Of a stretch of 62,140 nucleotides of DNA, positions 6,755 through 58,838 are shown one piece after another (positions within the stretch are counted from its first letter, which is position 1; every line of letters begins with the position of its first letter). The notes under the pieces are model-generated. The model had not been told where the DNA came from, did not search any database, and saw only the letters and a list, made by a program, of their open reading frames with translations. Source of the DNA: Cytophagales bacterium (lineage in GTDB: Bacteria > Bacteroidota > Bacteroidia > Cytophagales > Bernardetiaceae); NCBI GenBank assembly GCA_004293815.1, contig RDZD01000016.1, forward strand, positions 1 to 62,140, read 5' to 3'. Position numbers and translations under genes: made by a program.

Positions 6755-6898
6755 CCTTGCTAGCGAAAAAATTAATGTCATAAAAAATTAATTATTTCTA
6801 AACATCGAGCAGCGTTTTTGGTTTCCTGGTCGTAATGAATATGAGTTCACAAACCGCTCACATTCCAAAGTCCAAAATAAGACTACATTCCCCACAAG

Positions 6899-6925
6899 CC
6901 CCAGCTTTAGACTGGGGTTTTGTTG
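6899..6925 (+). terminator. rho-independent terminator hairpin (CCCCAG-ctttaga-CTGGGG followed by a TTTTGTTG tract)
   Basis: A 6-bp GC-rich perfect stem is followed by a T-tract, 145 bp downstream of the OmpA-family gene stop. Confidence 0.55.
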
Positions 6926-6952
6926 TGTTGGACTGGCCTAACAAATAAACCA

Positions 6953-6984
6953 AAGAGCACAAGAAACTAGAATCTTGTGCTCTT
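6953..6984. terminator. perfect 11-bp inverted repeat (AAGAGCACAAG ... CTTGTGCTCTT, 10-nt loop), candidate terminator for the minus-strand gene ending at 7153
   Basis: The inverted repeat is seen directly in the sequence. It lies downstream of the M50B-like gene on the minus strand. Confidence 0.35.
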
Positions 6985-7152
6985 GAAAGCTCAGCGACAA
7001 TTGTCCCAAGTTAATCCATTCAAATAAATTCCATCTGGCTTTAATTGTTACAATCAGCTGTAAGCTTCGTACCCAAATGAATATCTCACTCTAAGTTAAG
7101 TATGACACATATTCTATTTGATTGTATCAACTCTCAGAAAGATTTCTGCGCC

Positions 7153-7887
7153 TTAGGCCGCTGTCTTGGGTGAACGATGGGCTATATAAAGCGAATACAA
7201 CAGCATCATAACAGAAACAAGGGCAATGCTAGTACCCCAAAACCAATAAGGCAACAAGAGCGCATTGGCTATAGCTCCTGTATCAGAAGCATACTGCGTG
7301 CCATCAACCACTGCATTATCTACAAAAAGATAGTCAAATTGTGTAAAAACAGCTATAGAAGCCTGAACACCAAGAAGACGTACCAAAAATTGTGAGGTGT
7401 TATGACCACCCTTTAAGGCCACACTCAATATAAGAACAGCCCAAAGCGGTATAAAGACAAACCCAAAAATATTTCTAACCCAAACAATCACGCTGAAAGC
7501 CATAAACAGACCCAAAATCCACAATGATGCAGTGGCTACACGGGGAGAACGGCTCAAAATAATCAACAAACTACCCGCCACTGCTGGTCCTAACAAGCCC
7601 CCTGCCGCTACAGCAGCTTCACCTAGAGGGCCAAAGAGCACATCTTTGCTGTGCTTAGCCACTCCTGAGCCATCGCTAAATATTTCTAGTTGGTGGAACG
7701 TCCCGCCAAATAGAATAGCTGTCAGACCATGACCCATTTCATGAAACCACGTACACAAAATGGTGAAAGGGTAAAGGACATAATTACCGTAAGGCACATA
7801 ATTTAAGGCAATTGTAAACAAAGCCATTAAAAAGAGCCAAATGAGCGAGCTCTTTTTTTCACTGTGACCATCTATGGTGGTGTTCAT
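7153..7887 (-). CDS. M50B-like membrane zinc metalloprotease family protein
   Basis: The HEMGH (HExxH) motif sits inside a polytopic membrane protein of about 244 aa, which is the architecture of Peptidase_M50B. Confidence 0.6.
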   Translation of the reverse strand: MNTTIDGHSEKKSSLIWLFLMALFTIALNYVPYGNYVLYPFTILCTWFHEMGHGLTAILFGGTFHQLEIFSDGSGVAKHSKDVLFGPLGEAAVAAGGLLGPAVAGSLLIILSRSPRVATASLWILGLFMAFSVIVWVRNIFGFVFIPLWAVLILSVALKGGHNTSQFLVRLLGVQASIAVFTQFDYLFVDNAVVDGTQYASDTGAIANALLLPYWFWGTSIALVSVMMLLYSLYIAHRSPKTAA

Positions 7888-28353: not shown

Positions 28354-28529
28354 GAATCTTAGAGACCTGTATGCTCAGTATGCATGAAATATTTTTGAGG
28401 CTAATTACTGCACAATAAATATTTAAACTTACATTTGCATTGCGATGATTTAAGCGAAAAAAGCCTCTTGTGTTTAAAAACAATATTGTTTTTTGAATAT
28501 CCTATTTTAGGTATTAGAATTTGTATAAG

Positions 28530-28904
28530 ATGGAACAAAAAAAACTTTTGATAGCTGAAGATAGTTCTGTGATTCAGAACGTGATGGCCAAGGTGCTCAA
28601 GTTTCAAAACTATGAGATAGATTATGCCAAAAACGGTGTGCAGGTACTCACAAAACTTGAAGGCAAAGATTTTGATGTTATTCTCATGGACATCAATATG
28701 CCCGAAATGGATGGGATGGTCTGTGCAAAAAAGATCAGAGCATTAGCCGCACCCCAGAAATCTACAATACCTATCATTGCCGTAACTGGAAATGCGCAAA
28801 ACTACAGCATAGAAGACTTTAAAGATGCTGGAATTACAGATTATTTACCCAAACCTATTGACTTTGACGTTCTTATCAATAAGCTAAACGAACTTTGGAA
28901 GTAG
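28530..28904 (+). CDS. stand-alone response-regulator receiver domain protein (CheY-like)
   Basis: The E-D acidic pair (AEDS), the phospho-acceptor Asp in VILMDINMPEMDG, T/S (AVTG) and K (LPKP) are all conserved. No output domain is present. Confidence 0.85.
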   Translation: MEQKKLLIAEDSSVIQNVMAKVLKFQNYEIDYAKNGVQVLTKLEGKDFDVILMDINMPEMDGMVCAKKIRALAAPQKSTIPIIAVTGNAQNYSIEDFKDAGITDYLPKPIDFDVLINKLNELWK

Positions 28905-29241: not shown

Positions 29242-29802
29242 ATGGCCAAAACAGAAACCCTATCTATACCGCTTGGATTTGAAGCACCGCACTTTGTGCT
29301 ACCCGACGCGGTAAGCGGTCAAAACAAATCTCTAAGTGAGCTTATGGGCAGCAAAGCTACCGTTGTGGTCTTTATGTGCAATCATTGTCCTTACGTAACG
29401 CATATCATTGCACCTATGCTGCAAATAGCGCGCGATTTCGCCAGTTTGGGGGTTAAATTTATTGCTATTAACTCTAACGACGTGGTCAATTATCCACAAG
29501 ATTCGCCCGAAAATATGAAAAAATGGGCAGAGGAACTCAATTTTCCTTTCCCTTTTTTGTATGATGAAACGCAAGATGTGGCTAGACTCTATCAAGCAGC
29601 TTGTACACCAGATTTTAGTGTGTTTGATGCTCAAAAAAAATGTGTCTATCGTGGCCAGTTTGATGATTCCAGACCCAAAGGCACTATTCCAGCTACAGGC
29701 AAAGATTTACGCTATGTACTTGAGAATATTCTCATAGAACGTGAGCTTCCTAGTTATCAGATACCTAGCATGGGTTGTAACATTAAATGGAAGAAGGCAT
29801 GA
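29242..29802 (+). CDS. thioredoxin-fold thiol-disulfide oxidoreductase (redoxin/AhpC-TSA-like, CxxC = CNHC)
   Basis: The VVVFMCNHCPYV active-site region lies in a ~186-aa thioredoxin fold. No signal peptide is present. Confidence 0.8.
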   Translation: MAKTETLSIPLGFEAPHFVLPDAVSGQNKSLSELMGSKATVVVFMCNHCPYVTHIIAPMLQIARDFASLGVKFIAINSNDVVNYPQDSPENMKKWAEELNFPFPFLYDETQDVARLYQAACTPDFSVFDAQKKCVYRGQFDDSRPKGTIPATGKDLRYVLENILIERELPSYQIPSMGCNIKWKKA

Positions 29803-30084
29803 AGCTGAGCTTTTGCTCTTCTTATTATACCATAACTCTAGTTTTTTAGCAATAATTTCATTACGAAATCTTACAAGATTGCAGCTTTTGCAGTCTTGCT
29901 TCCTTAGTAGTTTTTGTCTCTAGCCTTATCCTAAAAAGCGTCTCAAATAGTTAATATTTAGACAGTTATATTTTTATACATTTCAATCAAAGCTAAAAAA
30001 ATCCAAGTGCGGTAGACTTTAAGGCTATAAAATAAATTTATTAGCTTTTAGGTGATATTTCTAACGTTTTTTACACTTCCCTGT

Positions 30085-30615
30085 ATGAAGACAAAACAAA
30101 TTGCACAAATGCGCACACGCGAGTCAATAATACTAGAACTATATGAAGAGGCTTTTCCTGAAGCGGCGGTCTTTGTACGCAAAATGGGAGGCTCCTTGAA
30201 TGATGCAAAAGACATTTTTCATGACGCTTTGGTGATTTACTATGAACAAAAACTAACTCTTGGCTTTACACCCGAACAAGGGCACAAGGTTTATTTGAGT
30301 GGTATTGTCAAAAATTTATGGTACAAAAACTATCAGAAATCAAAACTGATTGAGCCACTGGCAGATAACATGTTGTTTGCAGACGACTCACCCAAAGTCT
30401 CTATACGTTTGATGCGATTCTTAGAGCTTTCGGGTAAGCGTTGTATGGAACTTTTGTCTGCTTTTTATTTTGAAAAAATGCCTTTGGCAGACTTGGTAGA
30501 GCGTTTTGGATTTTCAGGTGTGCGTTCAGCCACTGTACAGAAATTCAAATGTGTAACCAAGCTCCGCGAAGCGGTTCGCGAGCGTACACTAAAACAAGAA
30601 GATTTTTATGAATGA
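30085..30615 (+). CDS. ECF-type RNA polymerase sigma-70 family factor
   Basis: A region-2-like segment (DAKDIFHDALVIYYEQ ... YLSGIVKNLWYKNYQK) and a region-4 HTH (MPLADLVERFGFSGVRSATVQKFKCVTKLRE) are present. The start is chosen at MKTKQ. Confidence 0.7.
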   Translation: MKTKQIAQMRTRESIILELYEEAFPEAAVFVRKMGGSLNDAKDIFHDALVIYYEQKLTLGFTPEQGHKVYLSGIVKNLWYKNYQKSKLIEPLADNMLFADDSPKVSIRLMRFLELSGKRCMELLSAFYFEKMPLADLVERFGFSGVRSATVQKFKCVTKLREAVRERTLKQEDFYE

Positions 30616-30862
30616 GACCGAACTAATAGAACACTATCTACAGGGACTACTTACGCCAGAGGACAGGCTATTGCTGGAGGCTAAGTTACTTCTATACCCT
30701 GATTTAAAACAGAAAATTGAATTACAAAGCCTCGTCTATGACATTGCAAAAGTATATGGGGAGCAAGCATTAAGGCAAGACATTGCTACAGCCGAGCGCA
30801 AGCTCTTTACAGAATCACGCTTTCAGAATTTTAGATCGCTCATTTTCAATATCTTTAACTAA
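30608..30862 (+). CDS. small hypothetical protein (84 aa), candidate anti-sigma factor partner
   Basis: The ORF overlaps the sigma gene by 8 nt. Its N-terminal LIEHYLQGLLTPEDRLLLEAKLLLYPDL motif resembles the N-termini of Bacteroidota anti-sigma-like proteins. It has no TM segment. Confidence 0.4.
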   Translation: MNETELIEHYLQGLLTPEDRLLLEAKLLLYPDLKQKIELQSLVYDIAKVYGEQALRQDIATAERKLFTESRFQNFRSLIFNIFN

Positions 30863-30870
30863 TCTCACGC

Positions 30871-31422
30871 ATGAATACTCCTTCTTTACAGGATATCATT
30901 GATGAAAAAATTCTGCGCAGCAGAAGAATCTTTTTATGGGGACAGGTAGATGATGCTTCCGCCAAACATGTTATAGACCGTCTTCTCTATTTAGAGCTTG
31001 TACAGCCTGGACAAGAAATTCAGCTTATCATCAACAGCCCAGGAGGCTACGTAACTTCTGGATTTGCTATTTATGACACAATGAAAAGTATTACAAGCCC
31101 TATTTCTACGGTTTGTTCAGGTTTTGCGGCCTCAAAAGGCTCTATTTTACTGTCTGCTGGTGCAAAGGGCAGGCGTTTCATACTGCCTCACGCACGTGTC
31201 ATGATACACCAGCCAAGTGGTGGGGCGAGAGGTCCTGCGTCTGACATAGAAATACAAATGGACGAAATCATCAAAGCTAAAAAGCTCGGTGCAGAAATAT
31301 TGGCAGCTAATTGCCAAAAGTCTGTGGAACAAGTGATGAAAGACTTTAATCGTGATTACTGGATGTCAGCAGAAGAGTCAGTAGCCTATGGCATTGTAGA
31401 TAAAGTACTCGACCGGCTTTGA
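30871..31422 (+). CDS. clpP: ATP-dependent Clp protease proteolytic subunit paralogue (183 aa, short N-terminus)
   Basis: NSPGGYVTSGFAIYDTM, the catalytic Ser in GFAASKG, His in MIHQPSGG and Asp in RDYWMSAEE are all present. The gene starts 8 nt after the stop of the preceding small ORF. Confidence 0.9.
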   Translation: MNTPSLQDIIDEKILRSRRIFLWGQVDDASAKHVIDRLLYLELVQPGQEIQLIINSPGGYVTSGFAIYDTMKSITSPISTVCSGFAASKGSILLSAGAKGRRFILPHARVMIHQPSGGARGPASDIEIQMDEIIKAKKLGAEILAANCQKSVEQVMKDFNRDYWMSAEESVAYGIVDKVLDRL

Positions 31423-31479: not shown

Positions 31480-31965
31480 CTAGAAAATGCCGTTAAAAAT
31501 CCACACAAAAATCATGAGAATATTAAGTGCTTCAGGAAAAAACAACCCACAAATTGCGGTAATCAGCCCAGAAAGCACCAATAAACCACAAACAGGTAAG
31601 ATAGAAGGAATGGCAAGCATAAAAGCCAGAGCCACTCCCAAAAGCCCTAATCCACCCATCACACAACCGCTGTAAAACATAATAGGACTTCGGGGAATGT
31701 TGCCCTCATCTCCCCAGTCCTTGGGTTGTTTAAAGTACTTTTTGGTGCTTTGCTTTTCTATCTTTTTAGTAATTTTCTTTTCCAAACGCTTCAAAACAAA
31801 CTTTTGGGCAGCATTAAGCTTAGGCCTTGCTGTTTTTATTACTTGCGCCTTTGTCTCAGAGGTGCTTGTAGCTGTTTGAGTCGGAGCCTCTACGCATGCG
31901 GAAAACACCAAGTAAGGCAGCGTCAAGAAATAAAAGAAGAGGAGGAATAGAATGGATTTTTTCAT
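31480..31965 (-). CDS. hypothetical Lys-rich membrane (lipo)protein
   Basis: A signal peptide with a Cys (LVFSAC) is followed by a Lys-rich segment and two C-terminal TM helices. Confidence 0.45.
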   Translation of the reverse strand: MKKSILFLLFFYFLTLPYLVFSACVEAPTQTATSTSETKAQVIKTARPKLNAAQKFVLKRLEKKITKKIEKQSTKKYFKQPKDWGDEGNIPRSPIMFYSGCVMGGLGLLGVALAFMLAIPSILPVCGLLVLSGLITAICGLFFPEALNILMIFVWIFNGIF

Positions 31966-56228: not shown

Positions 56229-58838
56229 TTAAATGACATTTTCAAATATAAACTGCCGAGCGTTGACATCGTAGTCTATCATCACCGCGCTTGAACGGAT
56301 TATTTTGCCCTGCAAAATCTGTTTTGAAAGTTCATTGAGTATATTTTTTTGGATAAAACGCTTGAGCGGTCTTGCGCCAAAATCAGTATCTGCACCTCTT
56401 TGCACCAGTGCCTCAATGGCCTGTGGCGTGGCATCTACATATAAATCGTTTTCAGCCAAACGCTTTTGCAATTCTCTAATTTGAATACGGGCTATTTCAG
56501 TCAATATCTCATAACTTAATGGCCTGAATATCAAAACTTCATCTACACGGTTTAGGAATTCTGGTTTGAGAGTGCGCTTCAAATGTTCGTAGGCTTGTTC
56601 TTGTGTGCGCTCATAAATTTTGGCTTCGCTGAGATCCGTTCGCTGGTAGTTCTTTGTGATTAGTTCTGCGCCCATGTTGGAGGTCATGACAATAATGGTA
56701 TTTTTAAAATTAGCCAGTCTTCCTTTGTTATCAGTCAGCTGCCCGTCATCTAATACCTGTAAAAGCACATTGAAAACGTCTGGGTGTGCTTTTTCTATTT
56801 CATCTAACAGCATCACACTGTAAGGTCTCCTTCTGATAATCTCTGTTAGCTGTCCGCCCTCATCGTAGCCCACATAGCCAGGGGGCGAACCAATGAGCCT
56901 GCTCACACTGTGTCGCTCCTGATACTCAGACATATCTATGCGTACGATGGCATTTTCGTCGTTAAAAAGCTGTTCTGCAAGTGCTTTTGCTAATTCAGTC
57001 TTACCCACACCCGTAGGCCCCATAAAAATGAAAGAGGCCATGGGTTTTTTAGGATCTTGTAAATTGGCGCGGCTTCTTCTTACGGCATCTGCCACCGCTA
57101 CAATGGCCTCTTTCTGCCCTGCCACGCGCAGCGAGAGTTCTTGCTCTAAATTGAGCAATTTTTCTTTGTCGCTTTGTAGCATTTTGCTCACAGGTACGCC
57201 CGTCCAACGAGCCACCACCTCCGCAATTCGCTCTGCTGTAACTTCTTCTTTCATCACTTGGTTATTGCCGTTTTTGTCCATATTAGCCAATTGATTTTCA
57301 AGTTCCAGAAGTTTGGTTTGAGCGTCTTTAATGAGTCCGTAACGCAACTCCGCAGCCCGCCCATAGTCGGCGTTTCTTTCGGCTTGTTCTGCCTCCAGAT
57401 TGTATTGTTCAATATTCTTTTTTTGTGTTCTGATGTTATCCAGTAAATGTTTTTCACTTTGCCAGTCTTCCAAAAGCAAGGTTCTTTGTGAGTTGAGATC
57501 CGCAATTTCTTTGCTCAACAAAGCTTCTTTGTCGGGATCCTTTTCGCGGCGAATAGCTTCTCTTTCGATTTCTAGCTGCATGATACGCCTTTGCACCTCG
57601 TCTAGAGCTTCTGGCATAGAATTTATCTCAATTCTGAGCTTGGCAGCCGCTTCGTCCATCAAGTCAATGGCCTTATCTGGTAGAAACCTATCTGAAATAT
57701 AGCGGCTTGAAAGCTGCACTGCCGCCATAACAGCCGCATCGAGTATGCGCACACCATGATGCAGTTCGTATTTTTCTTTGATTCCTCTCAGAATTGAAAT
57801 GGCATCAGCCTGTGAGGGTTCATCAACAAAAATGCTCTGAAAACGCCGTTCTAAGGCTTTATCTTTTTCTATGTATTTTTGGTACTCATTTAGTGTAGTG
57901 GCTCCAACTACACGCAGCTCCCCCCGAGCCAGAGCAGGCTTGAGCAAGTTGGCAGCGTCAAGTGCGCTATCACCCCCGCTCCCTGTGCCTATGAGCGTAT
58001 GTATTTCGTCAATAAACAAAATGATTTGACCTTCAGCAGCTACCACCTCTTGAATAACAGATTTGAGCCTCTCTTCAAACTCTCCTTTGTATTTTGCACC
58101 AGCCACCAAAAGCCCCATATCTAGTACAAAAAGGCGAACATTCTGGAGATTTTCGGGCACATCTCCTGCCACAATGCGCCTAGCCAAACCTTCCACAATG
58201 GCGGTTTTGCCTACGCCCGGTTCTCCGATAAGCATGGGGTTGTTCTTGGTACGCCTAGATATGATTTGCAGCAAACGCCTAATTTCTTCATCGCGGCCAA
58301 TGACAGGATCTATTTTTCCAGCCTTCACAAGCTCTATAAGATCTTTGGCATATCGGCTGAGCGCACGGTAAGTATTTTCAGCGTTCTGGTCGCTTACTTT
58401 TTTTAAACCGCGAAGGTCTTTAATGGCTTTAATCGCTATTTTTTCATCAAAACCGTTGTTTTTGAGGCTGTAAGCTACTTGGTCTGTGTTGCTGCCCAAG
58501 GCCAAAAACAAATGCTCGAGAGCCACAAAATCGTCTTTAAACTCTTGACGATAATTTTCAGCTTTAGACAGCACTTGATGTGCTTGAGAGGATAAATAAG
58601 CTGACTGTTGGCCAGAAGATTTTGGGTAGGAAAGTAGCGTTTTTTCAAGTTCGTCAAGAAGCGCGGCCTTACCTATCCCTATTTTCTGAAATAAAAATTC
58701 AAAAAGTTTTTCATCCGTAAGCCAAAGAGCTTTGAGGATATGACCTGTTTGAATAATTTGCTGCTGTGATGAGGTAGCTATTTGTGAAGCCTTTTCTATG
58801 CTTTCGTATGCTTTGACGGTATATTTGTCCAGATTCAT
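56229..58838 (-). CDS. clpB: ATP-dependent chaperone ClpB
   Basis: Two AAA+ modules are present ([30 protein letters not shown]). A long coiled-coil M-domain separates them, and the sensor-2 and C-terminal D2 small domains are also present, in an 869-aa protein. Confidence 0.95.

What the first reader, a model, noticed from the sequence alone, without database searches (positions are those of the whole stretch)
30052..31422. Tight ECF sigma / small partner / atypical ClpP cassette
Three ORFs are packed with almost no spacing. The sigma gene and the 84-aa ORF overlap by 8 nt, and clpP starts 8 nt after the 84-aa ORF stop, so co-transcription is very likely. The ClpP has an intact Ser-His-Asp triad (GFAASKG, MIHQP, RDYWMSA). 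Its N-terminus is about 9 residues shorter than canonical ClpP and lacks the PxVIE-type axial-loop segment that gates the pore and contacts ClpX or ClpA. A canonical housekeeping clpP normally sits with tig and clpX. A clpP paralogue hard-wired behind an ECF sigma and a soluble putative anti-sigma is not an arrangement I recognise. It suggests a dedicated proteolytic switch in which the anti-sigma is degraded by its own operon-encoded protease, or a sigma-driven specialised ClpP.
Basis: partly seen in the sequence, partly recalled or inferred. Interest (0 to 1): 0.7.

Follow-up and report, generated by a model that had tools for sequence, protein, structure and literature searches.

The report
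Sigma-controlled ClpP protease cassette, Bacteroidota
A small three-gene unit (a divergent alternative sigma factor, a tiny partner protein and a stripped-down ClpP protease subunit) sits behind one conserved promoter; the same unit is found across the phylum Bacteroidota and seems not to have been described, so it is probably a dedicated switch for turning on an extra protease subunit.

Summary
Three + strand genes are packed as described: an 8-nt overlap, then an 8-nt gap. One correction: the sigma gene starts at ATG 30085.

The unit is not a local oddity. Sigma, small partner and ClpP occur in that order in all 81 assessable related loci, from Sphingobacteriales, Cytophagales, Flavobacterium, Chitinophagaceae, Saprospiraceae and Rhodothermaceae-labelled contigs. 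Their flanks are unrelated.

A bipartite motif, GGTGAT-N17-CACWT, precedes the sigma gene in 81 sigma-bearing sequences and occurs only 5 times elsewhere in 1.5 Mb of fetched loci.

The sigma fails curated HMM cut-offs, but its model folds like ECF sigmas. The 84-aa protein has no significant homology to anti-sigma factors, so that role is inferred.

The ClpP has an intact triad but lacks the axial hairpin and key ATPase-docking aromatics. It belongs to a large short-ClpP family that is usually a stand-alone gene; in one lineage it lies in tig-clpP1-clpP2-clpX.

Best reading: an autoregulated ECF-like sigma/anti-sigma operon whose output is an alternative ClpP isoform. Self-degradation of the anti-sigma is untested. 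I rate it a new variant of a known kind, of moderate to high interest.

The parts
30051..30078 (+). ECF-type bipartite promoter-like element GGTGATA-N16-CACTT. The -35-like box is 30051-30057 and the -10-like box 30074-30078, which ends 6 nt before the sigma ATG.
   Evidence: GGTGA[TC]-N17-[CA]AC[AT]T, always with a 17-nt spacer, lies 34-69 nt upstream of the sigma ATG in 71 of 81 loci; the other 10 carry one-base variants. With a slightly relaxed last box it occurs 81 times upstream of sigma genes (the redundant copies L001-L003 included) and 5 times elsewhere in 1.52 Mb scanned on both strands. It is the only perfect match in the window, and one-mismatch hits are at chance level. The consensus of 54 dereplicated loci has three conserved blocks: GGTGATA, CACtT and AAA.
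30085..30615 (+). Divergent ECF-like (group IV) sigma factor of 176 aa.
   Evidence: 468 homologues of about 178 aa, many named sigma-70/sigma24 family by their sources. Pfam Sigma70_r2 hits in 16 of 19 family members, but none for the window protein. NCBIfam TIGR02985 at E 2e-5 and TIGR02937 at 20 bits, both below cut-off. AlphaFold2 model with pLDDT 77: two helical domains joined by a disordered linker. Foldseek top 20 PDB matches are all ECF sigmas, including SigH, SigL, an RpoE bound to NepR, BldN, AlgU and sigma-E, with probability 0.90-1.00 and best E 1e-3.
30608..30862 (+). 84-aa helical soluble partner protein, a putative cognate anti-sigma factor. Its gene overlaps the sigma stop by 8 nt.
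   Evidence: Found by tblastn directly after the sigma gene in 77 of 80 genome loci. It always overlaps the sigma gene, by 8, 17 or 20 nt, in 77 of 77 loci measured. 273 representatives at E<=1e-3 in the 1.84-billion-protein library; 149 of the best 150 are stand-alone proteins of 81-93 aa. No Pfam or PDB match. Sub-threshold anti-sigma NCBIfam hits account for 4 of the 26 member matches, 2 each to two models. Similar (E 7e-7) to the N-terminal module of P0384, a 429-aa protein with a hydrophobic stretch that gives weak zf-HC2 and anti-sigma hits. Sources call it 'hypothetical protein'.
30871..31422 (+). Short ClpP paralogue of 183 aa ('class A', ClpP2-like). The triad is intact, but there is no axial beta-hairpin segment and the unfoldase-docking cleft is altered.
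   Evidence: Pfam CLP_protease at E 2.7e-67. Passes the NF009205 subfamily cut-off (236.6 against 228) but not the ClpP equivalog TIGR00493 (207.7 against 308.6). Alignment with E. coli and B. subtilis ClpP: Ser/His/Asp conserved, N-terminal loop absent, and positions equivalent to E. coli Y60/Y62/F82 are Q/I/S. Among the 120 closest relatives those positions are mostly Q / I, F, L or V / S, G or A. Relatives at 75-84% identity occur in Marinilabiliales, Prolixibacteraceae, Salinivirgaceae and Sunxiuqinia, where NCBI names one 'ClpP family protease'.

Best explanation
This is an autoregulated three-gene operon, in the order promoter, sigma, partner, clpP.

Shown:
- A conserved bipartite promoter-like element sits immediately upstream.
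- The first gene product has the fold of an ECF sigma factor.
- The second gene is translationally coupled to the first and co-conserved with it.
- The third gene is always a ClpP-family peptidase.
- The trio moves through Bacteroidota as a unit, with unrelated flanks.

Inferred:
- The sigma recognises its own promoter, GGTGATA-N16-CACTT.
- The 84-aa protein is its soluble anti-sigma and holds it inactive.
- An unknown cue releases the sigma, which then raises transcription of the whole operon.
- The physiological output is therefore a burst of this ClpP isoform.

In the window's lineage the isoform is a short ClpP2-type subunit. It lacks the N-terminal gating hairpin and two conserved aromatic residues of the unfoldase-docking cleft. 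It most likely cannot work with ClpX, ClpA or ClpC on its own. By analogy with Pseudomonas ClpP2, it would stack as a heptamer on the housekeeping ClpP1 ring and change the cleavage properties of the Clp protease under the inducing condition. Feedback of the induced protease on the sigma or its partner is possible but untested.
For: Gene order and spacing.

Conservation: the trio is present in 81 of 83 sigma-bearing loci, the other two being truncated by contig ends, across several orders. No other gene family is shared by more than 25 loci.

Promoter: the motif has a fixed 17-nt spacer, is essentially exclusive to the sigma upstream region, is absent upstream of clpP, and is absent from stand-alone short clpP genes. 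No Bacteroidetes-type TAnnTTTG box lies in the 29803-30084 intergenic region.

Sigma: ECF-like fold and Sigma70_r2 hits in 16 of 19 members.

Functional coupling: three different ClpP classes occupy the same third position. The sigmas of the class A cassettes form one clade. This is paralogue displacement within a conserved slot, which argues for coupling between the sigma pair and 'a ClpP'.

Short ClpP as a second isoform: in L160/L162, and in part in L158/L167, a class-A-like ClpP lies between a canonical Bacteroidota-type clpP and clpX, downstream of tig.

Cleft and N-terminus differences.

Analogy: PaClpP2 is active only in a ClpP1-ClpP2 heterocomplex. [quoted passage not shown]

Composition: the three genes match their neighbours, so the cassette looks native rather than recently acquired.
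Against: - The sigma fails every curated sigma/ECF cut-off, and a sequence profile of the family finds no PDB sigma. The best Foldseek E-value is only 1e-3.
- The partner has no significant similarity to any anti-sigma family by HMM, profile-profile or fold comparison. Its model is of low confidence, pLDDT 57.
- No expression data exist.
- I could not show that the window's organism has a canonical ClpP1 or ClpX elsewhere.
- In most cassettes (classes B and C) the ClpP keeps a normal N-terminal loop, so the ClpP2-type stacking model applies only to the class A sub-clade.
- Class B clusters next to the one tig-linked canonical ClpP available. It may be the sole ClpP in those genomes.
- Most short ClpPs are not sigma-linked: 63 of 64 assessable metagenome loci.
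Confidence: 0.5

Rival explanations
1. Dedicated proteolytic switch. The main job of the operon-encoded ClpP is to regulate the module itself. With an unfoldase it degrades the 84-aa anti-sigma (positive feedback, switch-like induction) or the sigma (negative feedback, pulse). It would not be supplying a general stress protease.
For: ClpP is the only conserved non-regulatory gene of the operon. No other perfect promoter copy lies in the 62-kb window or in the flanks of about 80 loci, so the regulon may be tiny. Precedents taken from the ECF classification paper: S. coelicolor sigma-R' is degraded by sigma-R-induced ClpP1/P2, and Clp proteases finish anti-sigma degradation after regulated intramembrane proteolysis.
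Against: No degron could be identified on either protein. There are no C-terminal AA or LAA-type tails; the partner ends in F-x-K-R-like sequences. The window's ClpP lacks the features needed to receive substrates from ClpX or ClpA by itself. Whole-genome regulon scans were not possible, so 'tiny regulon' is not established.
Confidence: 0.2
2. The 84-aa protein is not an anti-sigma. It is a ClpP-directed factor (adaptor, assembly chaperone or inhibitor of the co-encoded ClpP isoform), and the sigma is controlled in some other way, for example through its two invariant sigma-4 cysteines.
For: There is no significant homology to anti-sigma domains. The protein is as tightly linked to clpP (median gap 12 nt) as to the sigma gene. 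The sigma family has two invariant Cys residues.
Against: The partner gene always overlaps the sigma stop codon, which is typical of sigma/anti-sigma stoichiometric coupling. Its sequence stays recognisably the same family while the ClpP behind it switches between three classes that are 35-48% identical. That fits a sigma-binding protein better than a ClpP-binding one. Weak but repeated sub-threshold hits point to anti-sigma models, both directly and through P0384. It was never seen next to stand-alone short clpP genes.
Confidence: 0.12
3. This ClpP is simply the organism's housekeeping ClpP, and the sigma pair gives it a stress-inducible promoter. This would be a Bacteroidota substitute for the sigma-32 control of clpP in E. 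coli.
For: Class B cassette ClpPs look canonical, with a full N-terminal loop and the Bacteroidota N-extension. They cluster next to a tig-linked ClpP1, and their NF011091 scores (334-360) exceed that of the tig-linked ClpP1 (318). For Sphingobacteriales this reading stays open.
Against: For the window's ClpP this reading fits poorly. It lacks the axial hairpin and the Y62/F82-equivalent aromatics. Its family is usually an orphan gene, and in one lineage it co-occurs in one operon with a canonical clpP. NCBI names a relative 'ClpP family protease', not ClpP. No clpX or tig is nearby.
Confidence: 0.08
4. Chance adjacency or a mobile or phage-derived ClpP-like protease with no functional link to the sigma.
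For: ClpP-like prohead protease models give sub-threshold hits, 87 bits against a cut-off of 120.
Against: The order is conserved in 81 of 81 assessable loci across orders. Composition is native. No phage or mobile genes flank it. ClpP models score far higher than prohead-protease models.
Confidence: 0.02

Closest known systems
ECF115 group of ECF sigma factors (Firmicutes) with a Clp protease in the conserved genetic context (Casas-Pastor et al. 2021, supplementary text; bioRxiv 10.1101/2019.12.11.873521)
   Same: An ECF-type sigma whose only conserved neighbour is a Clp protease gene. Regulation by that protease was proposed on genomic grounds only.
   Different: ECF115 is 100% Firmicutes, carries a C-terminal extension of about 70 aa, has no co-encoded anti-sigma, and has a predicted promoter of ATC-Xn-CGT. 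The present family is from Bacteroidota, is 176-180 aa with no extension, always has an overlapping 84-90-aa partner gene, and has the motif GGTGATA-N16-CACTT. No Bacteroidetes group with a Clp context or this motif appears in that classification's text or tables.
Sigma-R / RsrA / ClpP1P2 circuit of Streptomyces coelicolor (ECF12)
   Same: An ECF sigma with a small soluble anti-sigma. Both the sigma and ClpP1/P2 are upregulated on stress, and the protease feeds back on an unstable sigma isoform. I take this from the ECF classification paper.
   Different: As far as I know, clpP1P2 is not encoded in the sigR-rsrA operon (from memory, not checked here). RsrA is a zinc-binding redox sensor, whereas the window's 84-aa protein has no Cys. 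No redox or other sensing mechanism is evident here.
Pseudomonas aeruginosa ClpP1/ClpP2, and similar two-isoform ClpP systems in Mycobacterium, Listeria, Chlamydia and Streptomyces
   Same: A second ClpP isoform with an intact triad but a divergent N-terminus lacking outward beta-hairpins and with less hydrophobic docking clefts. It is active only when stacked on ClpP1, and ClpX was seen bound to the ClpP1 ring (PMC12451819). The window's ClpP shows the same kinds of sequence deviation. A relative lies between clpP1 and clpX in L160.
   Different: No biochemical data exist for the Bacteroidota short ClpP. PaClpP2 occludes its clefts with a C-terminal extension, which the window protein lacks. 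A dedicated sigma/anti-sigma pair in the same operon is not something I know for PaClpP2 (from memory, not tested here).
Sigma-E/RseA (E. coli) and sigma-W/RsiW (B. subtilis) anti-sigma degradation completed by ClpXP
   Same: Clp proteolysis is the last step that frees an ECF sigma (established knowledge; echoed).
   Different: Those anti-sigmas are membrane proteins processed first by site-1 and site-2 proteases, and clpP is not part of the sigma operon. Here the partner is small and soluble, with no predicted TM segment.

Membership tests
ECF (group IV) sigma-70 family sigma factor | Only sigma-2 and sigma-4 domains, about 170-200 aa | tested here: met
   176 aa. The AlphaFold2 model has two helical domains (residues 12-88 and 107-165) with a disordered linker. 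The top 20 Foldseek PDB matches are full-length ECF sigmas.
ECF (group IV) sigma-70 family sigma factor | Passes curated sequence models (Pfam Sigma70_r2/r4_2, NCBIfam TIGR02937 sigma70-ECF) | tested here: not met
   The window protein has no Pfam hit at E<=0.1. TIGR02937 scores 20.0 bits against a cut-off of 42.9, and TIGR02985 scores 24.8 against 126.4. At family level, 16 of 19 members hit Sigma70_r2 at E<=0.01. A family profile finds no PDB sequence at E<=0.01.
ECF (group IV) sigma-70 family sigma factor | Conserved bipartite -35/-10-like motif upstream of its own gene (autoregulation) | tested here: met
   GGTGAT-N17-CACWT in 71 of 81 loci under the strict pattern. Under a slightly relaxed pattern there are 81 hits upstream of sigma genes and 5 elsewhere in 1.52 Mb scanned on both strands. 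That the sigma itself reads this motif is an inference.
ECF (group IV) sigma-70 family sigma factor | Binds RNA polymerase core and directs transcription | not testable with these tools
   Needs in vitro transcription or ChIP.
Class I anti-sigma factor (anti-sigma domain) | Sequence or fold homology to known anti-sigma domains (zf-HC2, RskA, RseA_N and others) | tested here: not met
   No Pfam hit for the family. No PDB profile hit; the best is HigB-2 at E 0.08. hhalign against two anti-sigma N-termini gives probabilities of 7.6% and 0.1%. The low-confidence model gives only generic helical matches. Only sub-threshold hints remain: PRK13920 at E 0.018, 4 of 26 member matches to anti-sigma models, and the link through P0384.
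Class I anti-sigma factor (anti-sigma domain) | Encoded immediately downstream of, and co-transcribed or translationally coupled with, its sigma | tested here: met
   Overlaps the sigma stop by 8, 17 or 20 nt in 77 of 77 loci.
Class I anti-sigma factor (anti-sigma domain) | Binds and inhibits the cognate sigma | not testable with these tools
   Complex prediction with a paired alignment was not available. Needs two-hybrid, pull-down or AlphaFold-Multimer.
ClpP (MEROPS S14) peptidase family | CLP_protease domain above the curated threshold, with a Ser-His-Asp triad | tested here: met
   PF00574 at 226.6 bits against a cut-off of 20.2. Ser88, His113 and Asp162 lie in invariant alignment columns.
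Canonical (housekeeping, unfoldase-coupled) ClpP | N-terminal axial beta-hairpin segment (PxVIE...GER) | tested here: not met
   Absent. The ORF cannot be extended upstream because of a stop 4 codons before the ATG. 109 of the 120 closest relatives have only 20-23 residues before the FLWG motif, against 29-30 in E. coli and B. subtilis.
Canonical (housekeeping, unfoldase-coupled) ClpP | Conserved aromatic residues of the IGF/LGF-loop docking cleft (E. coli Y62, F82) | tested here: not met
   The equivalent positions are Ile and Ser in the window protein, and I/F/L/V and S/G/A in its family. The residue list for E. coli comes from my memory of the ClpP literature, not from a tool.
Canonical (housekeeping, unfoldase-coupled) ClpP | Passes a ClpP equivalog model and lies in a tig-clpP-clpX context | tested here: not met
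   TIGR00493 scores 207.7 against 308.6, and NF011091 scores 201.4 against 361. No clpX or tig lies in the window. Caveat: a tig-linked ClpP1 in L160 also falls below these cut-offs, so the cut-off alone is a weak criterion.
Two-isoform ClpP1/ClpP2 systems | A canonical ClpP is encoded in the same genome as the divergent isoform | tested here: inconclusive
   This is shown for a related class-A-like ClpP in L160/L162, with the order tig-clpP1-clpP2-clpX. It could not be checked for the window's organism, because only this contig is available.
Two-isoform ClpP1/ClpP2 systems | Hetero-tetradecamer formation, with the divergent isoform inactive alone | not testable with these tools
   Needs biochemistry or multimer modelling.
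ECF115 (Firmicutes ECF group with Clp protease context) | C-terminal extension of about 70 aa, no anti-sigma, ATC-Xn-CGT promoter, Firmicutes | tested here: not met
   The window sigma has no extension, at 176 aa. A partner gene is always present. The promoter differs. The host phylum is Bacteroidota.

The most novel reading that the evidence does not exclude
A previously unclassified, phylum-wide family of ECF-like sigma factors exists essentially to control one gene, a ClpP isoform. Together with its minimal soluble anti-sigma it would form a self-contained proteolytic feedback switch. The induced ClpP would remodel the Clp core (ClpP1-ClpP2-type hetero-complexes in the window's clade) and, with an unfoldase, degrade the anti-sigma or the sigma. 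The repeated replacement of the ClpP type in the third slot would then show that the sigma-ClpP coupling itself is what is selected.
Probability: 0.25. Interest if true: 0.75.

Novelty: new variant of a known kind. Interest (0 to 1): 0.58.

Why it matters
Regulation of proteolysis and of stress responses in Bacteroidota is, to my knowledge, poorly understood. My recollection, not checked here, is that the phylum lacks sigma-32 and most of its many ECF sigmas are unstudied. This finding offers four things.

1. A compact, highly conserved module with a sharply defined promoter that can be tested directly in tractable genera such as Flavobacterium, Pedobacter, Sphingobacterium and Mucilaginibacter.
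2. A sigma family that the curated models used here miss and that I could not find in the 2021 ECF classification.
3. An 84-90-aa protein family, annotated only as hypothetical, that may be a new minimal anti-sigma type.
4. A large family of short ClpP subunits lacking gating loops, whose biochemistry is unexplored, including possible hetero-oligomers with ClpP1.

If the feedback idea holds, this would be a rare case in which a sigma, its anti-sigma and their protease are hard-wired in one operon.

Tried and rejected
1. Homology of the 84-aa protein to anti-sigma factors. All of the following were negative or sub-threshold:
- Pfam on 26 members.
- NCBIfam on 26 members.
- PDB profile search; the best hit was HigB-2 toxin at E 0.08, judged noise.
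- hhalign against two anti-sigma N-termini.
- Single-sequence AlphaFold2, pLDDT 57, and Foldseek on that model, which gave only generic helical bundles.

2. The word-indexed protein search with the 84-aa protein found only itself, so no permitted alignment was available for structure prediction.

3. The NCBIfam ClpP equivalog cut-offs were tried as a test of 'paralogue versus housekeeping'. I rejected them as unreliable, because a tig/clpX-linked ClpP1 also falls below them.

4. A second promoter copy in front of clpP, elsewhere in the window, or upstream of stand-alone short clpP genes: none found.

5. Sigma-70-type and terminator consensus scans of the locus gave nothing above background for promoters, and only weak intragenic terminator-like hairpins.

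6. Phage prohead-protease, SppA and SDH readings of the ClpP were rejected on scores.

7. Literature searches for a described Bacteroidetes sigma-ClpP cassette found none. The only ECF group with a Clp context in the ECF classification is the Firmicutes group ECF115.

8. I could not search whole genomes for a second clpP.
Full report
**1. What is in the window**

Three + strand ORFs occupy 30052-31422. The DNA shows the sigma stop and the start of the small ORF sharing ATGAATGA, an 8-nt overlap. Exactly 8 nt then separate the small ORF's TAA from the clpP ATG. The next gene downstream (31480-31965) is on the other strand, so the unit ends with clpP. The same three genes, with 100% identical proteins, occur on several independently assembled contigs. 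NCBI holds the ClpP and the small protein as 'ATP-dependent Clp protease proteolytic subunit' and 'hypothetical protein EAZ57_05210' of a Cytophagales MAG. GC and GC3 of the three genes match their neighbours. The rest of the window is ordinary Bacteroidota chromosome: ClpB, UvrA, a sigma-54-dependent response regulator, a MATE/MurJ-family transporter, a peroxiredoxin, a glycosyltransferase, UDG and NUDIX. No clpX, tig or second clpP lies in the 62 kb.

**2. The unit is conserved across the phylum**

The sigma-like protein has at least 468 homologues of about 178 aa, in Mucilaginibacter, Pedobacter, Sphingobacterium, Flavobacterium, Catalinimonas and many MAGs.

- tblastn found the 84-aa protein directly after the sigma gene in 77 of the 80 genome loci. 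ClpP followed in 78 of them.
- Clustering of all ORFs put a ClpP ORF in 81 of the 83 sigma-bearing loci. The two exceptions (L016, L018) are cut by contig ends.
- No other gene family is shared by more than 25 loci, and no clpX or tig is nearby.
- The small gene always overlaps the sigma stop, by 8, 17 or 20 nt in 77 of 77 loci. The median gap to clpP is 12 nt, at most 15 nt in 49 of 76 loci and at most 308 nt overall.

**3. A conserved promoter, and a corrected start codon**

Upstream regions are otherwise unalignable across orders, yet all carry GGTGATA-N16-(G)CAC(T/A)T. Most also have an AAA block about 10 nt further on.

- The strict pattern GGTGA[TC]-N17-[CA]AC[AT]T is present in 71 of 81 loci, always with a 17-nt spacer. 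The other 10 have single-base variants.
- A slightly relaxed pattern hits 81 times just upstream of sigma genes and 5 times elsewhere in 1.52 Mb scanned on both strands.
- In the window the element is at 30051-30078. It is the only perfect match in 62 kb, and one-mismatch hits are at chance level.
- It never occurs between the small gene and clpP, nor upstream of stand-alone short clpP genes.
- Two invariant blocks at a fixed 17-nt spacing, 34-69 nt before the ATG, is the usual signature of an autoregulated ECF promoter. That the sigma reads it is an inference.
Homologues align from ATG 30085, giving 176 aa.
- In the window the -10-like box ends only 6 nt before that ATG, so the mRNA may be leaderless or nearly so. 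This is noted but not resolved.

**4. The sigma**

The window protein has no Pfam hit and only sub-threshold NCBIfam hits: TIGR02985 at E 2e-5 and TIGR02937 at 20 bits against 42.9. A family profile finds no PDB sequence. Other evidence points the opposite way. Sixteen of 19 family members hit Sigma70_r2. An AlphaFold2 model built on the family alignment (pLDDT 77) has two helical domains joined by a disordered linker. Its top 20 Foldseek matches in the PDB are all ECF sigmas over their full length, including SigH, SigL, an RpoE bound to NepR, BldN, AlgU and sigma-E, with probability 0.90-1.00 and best E 1e-3. I therefore call it a divergent ECF-like sigma that works like an ECF, while recording that it fails the curated membership thresholds. 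The family has two invariant cysteines in sigma-4.

**5. The 84-aa protein**

It belongs to a discrete family. There are 273 representatives at E<=1e-3 among 1.84 billion proteins, and 149 of the best 150 are stand-alone proteins of 81-93 aa. Every source calls it hypothetical. It is predicted to be all-helical, although the model is poor, with pLDDT 57. No significant similarity to anti-sigma domains was found by Pfam, NCBIfam, PDB profile, hhalign or Foldseek.

What remains is weak:
- An N-terminal 'YLxGxLxPEDxLLxEAxL' motif that resembles the first helices of anti-sigma domains.
- Sub-threshold anti-sigma hits, accounting for 4 of 26 member matches.
- E 7e-7 similarity to the repeated N-terminal module of P0384. 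This 429-aa protein has a hydrophobic stretch and itself gives weak zf-HC2 and anti-sigma hits.

The anti-sigma role is thus inferred from position, translational coupling and strict co-conservation with the sigma.

**6. The ClpP**

It is a genuine S14 peptidase, with PF00574 at E 2.7e-67 and an invariant Ser/His/Asp triad. The N-terminal axial hairpin is missing, and the ORF cannot be extended. Positions equivalent to E. coli Y60/Y62/F82 of the unfoldase-docking cleft are Q/I/S. The residue list is from my memory of the ClpP literature. These traits are shared by its closest relatives. That family of about 185-aa ClpPs is large, 75-84% identical to the window protein, and found in Marinilabiliales, Prolixibacteraceae, Salinivirgaceae, Bacteroidales and Sunxiuqinia, where NCBI names one 'ClpP family protease'.

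This short ClpP ('class A') is usually not sigma-linked. Four looked-up places and 63 of 64 assessable metagenome loci have no sigma or partner upstream. In one freshwater lineage (L160/L162; partial in L158/L167) a class-A-like ClpP lies between a canonical Bacteroidota-type clpP and clpX, downstream of tig. There it is a second isoform inside the ClpXP operon.

Behind the sigma pair, three ClpP types occur:
- Class A: the window and five genome loci.
- Class B: the long Bacteroidota N-extension plus a normal loop, in Sphingobacteriales, Flavobacterium and Chitinophagaceae.
- Class C: a normal N-terminus, an unusual IHMHP motif and a C-terminal tail, in Cytophagales, Saprospiraceae and a Rhodothermaceae-labelled contig. 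NCBI names the Rufibacter ruber member 'ClpP family protease'.

In neighbour-joining trees the class A cassette sigmas form one clade. Their ClpPs are nested inside the otherwise stand-alone class A family. This suggests that a ClpP2-type gene replaced the ancestral ClpP in that slot. These are distance trees and should be treated as indicative.

**7. Mechanism**

Best-supported reading (confidence 0.5): an autoregulated ECF-like sigma/anti-sigma operon whose conserved output is a ClpP isoform. In the window's clade the isoform probably cannot dock an unfoldase itself. By analogy with P. aeruginosa ClpP2, it would act as a ring stacked on ClpP1. PaClpP2 is active only in ClpP1-ClpP2 heterocomplexes, its N-terminus does not form outward hairpins, its clefts are less hydrophobic, and ClpX was seen bound to the ClpP1 ring (PMC12451819).

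Other rivals:
- The small protein is a ClpP factor rather than an anti-sigma (0.12).
- The ClpP is simply the housekeeping one under a stress promoter (0.08 for this window; it stays open for class B).
- Chance adjacency (0.02).

**8. Comparison with what is known, and novelty**

The 2021 ECF classification lists only one group with a Clp protease context. That is ECF115, from Firmicutes, with a C-terminal extension, no anti-sigma and an ATC/CGT promoter. No Bacteroidetes group with this motif or context appears in it. Five literature searches found no description of the cassette. The parts are of known kinds: an ECF-type sigma, a small partner and a ClpP paralogue. The family, its promoter and the hard-wired sigma-partner-ClpP architecture in Bacteroidota appear undescribed. 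I rate it a new variant of a known kind, with interest 0.58.

**9. Limits**

- There are no expression or interaction data.
- The organism's other Clp genes could not be examined.
- The anti-sigma role is inferred.
They behaved as expected in alignments and searches.
- The 80 genome loci are the best-scoring of more than 525, so more distant relatives may differ.

Noticed in passing
L160:1659-5813 (also L162; partial in L158 and L167): A freshwater metagenome contig carries tig, clpP1 (229 aa, Bacteroidota N-extension), clpP2 (206 aa, class-A-like, with an acidic N-terminal tail instead of the axial hairpin) and clpX in one tight + strand array. This is a two-ClpP ClpXP operon in a Bacteroidota-like lineage.
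   Followed up: partly
window 30085-30615 (residues C120 and C156 of the 176-aa sigma): Two cysteines in the sigma-4 domain are invariant across 19 diverse family members. This could be a redox or metal site in the sigma itself. The 84-aa partner of the window has no Cys.
   Followed up: no
window 31132-31134 (Lys89 of ClpP, motif GFAASKGS): The residue after the catalytic Ser is Lys. It is Met in 112 of the 120 closest relatives, and only 7 share Lys. The same sequence occurs on several independent contigs, so it is not an assembly error.
   Followed up: partly
window 30074-30087: The -10-like box CACTT ends only 6 nt before the sigma ATG, and the downstream AAA block seen in most other loci is missing. 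The transcript may be leaderless, or the start may be the next ATG at 30109.
   Followed up: no
window 29242-29802 (+): An AhpC/TSA-type peroxiredoxin gene lies directly upstream of the cassette on the same strand, preceded by an orphan response-regulator receiver (28521-28904) and an 87-aa ORF. This neighbourhood was seen only in the redundant loci L001-L003, not in the other cassette loci I mapped.
   Followed up: partly
window 31480-31965 (-): A 161-aa ORF with a lipoprotein-like signal (…LVFSAC), a Lys-rich middle and hydrophobic C-terminal segments converges on clpP. It was found only in the near-identical contigs L001-L003, not in other cassette loci.
   Followed up: no
window 56229-58838 (-): A full-length ClpB disaggregase (869 aa) lies 25 kb from the cassette. 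It is the only other Clp-family gene in the window.
   Followed up: no
P0384 (429-aa protein from the representative library): Two tandem copies of a module resembling the 84-aa protein are followed by a hydrophobic stretch and a C-terminal domain. The protein gives weak zf-HC2 and anti-sigma hits. It may be a membrane-anchored relative of the small partner family.
   Followed up: partly
L034, L053, L069, L079, L080 (class C ClpP genes, about 6800-7600 in each locus): The ClpPs behind the sigma pair in Cytophagales, Saprospiraceae and a Rhodothermaceae-labelled contig have a normal N-terminal loop. They also have an unusual IH(M/N)HP motif around the catalytic His, GF(S/T)GSM around the Ser, and a C-terminal tail of about 25 aa. 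NCBI names the Rufibacter ruber member (L079) 'ClpP family protease'.
   Followed up: partly
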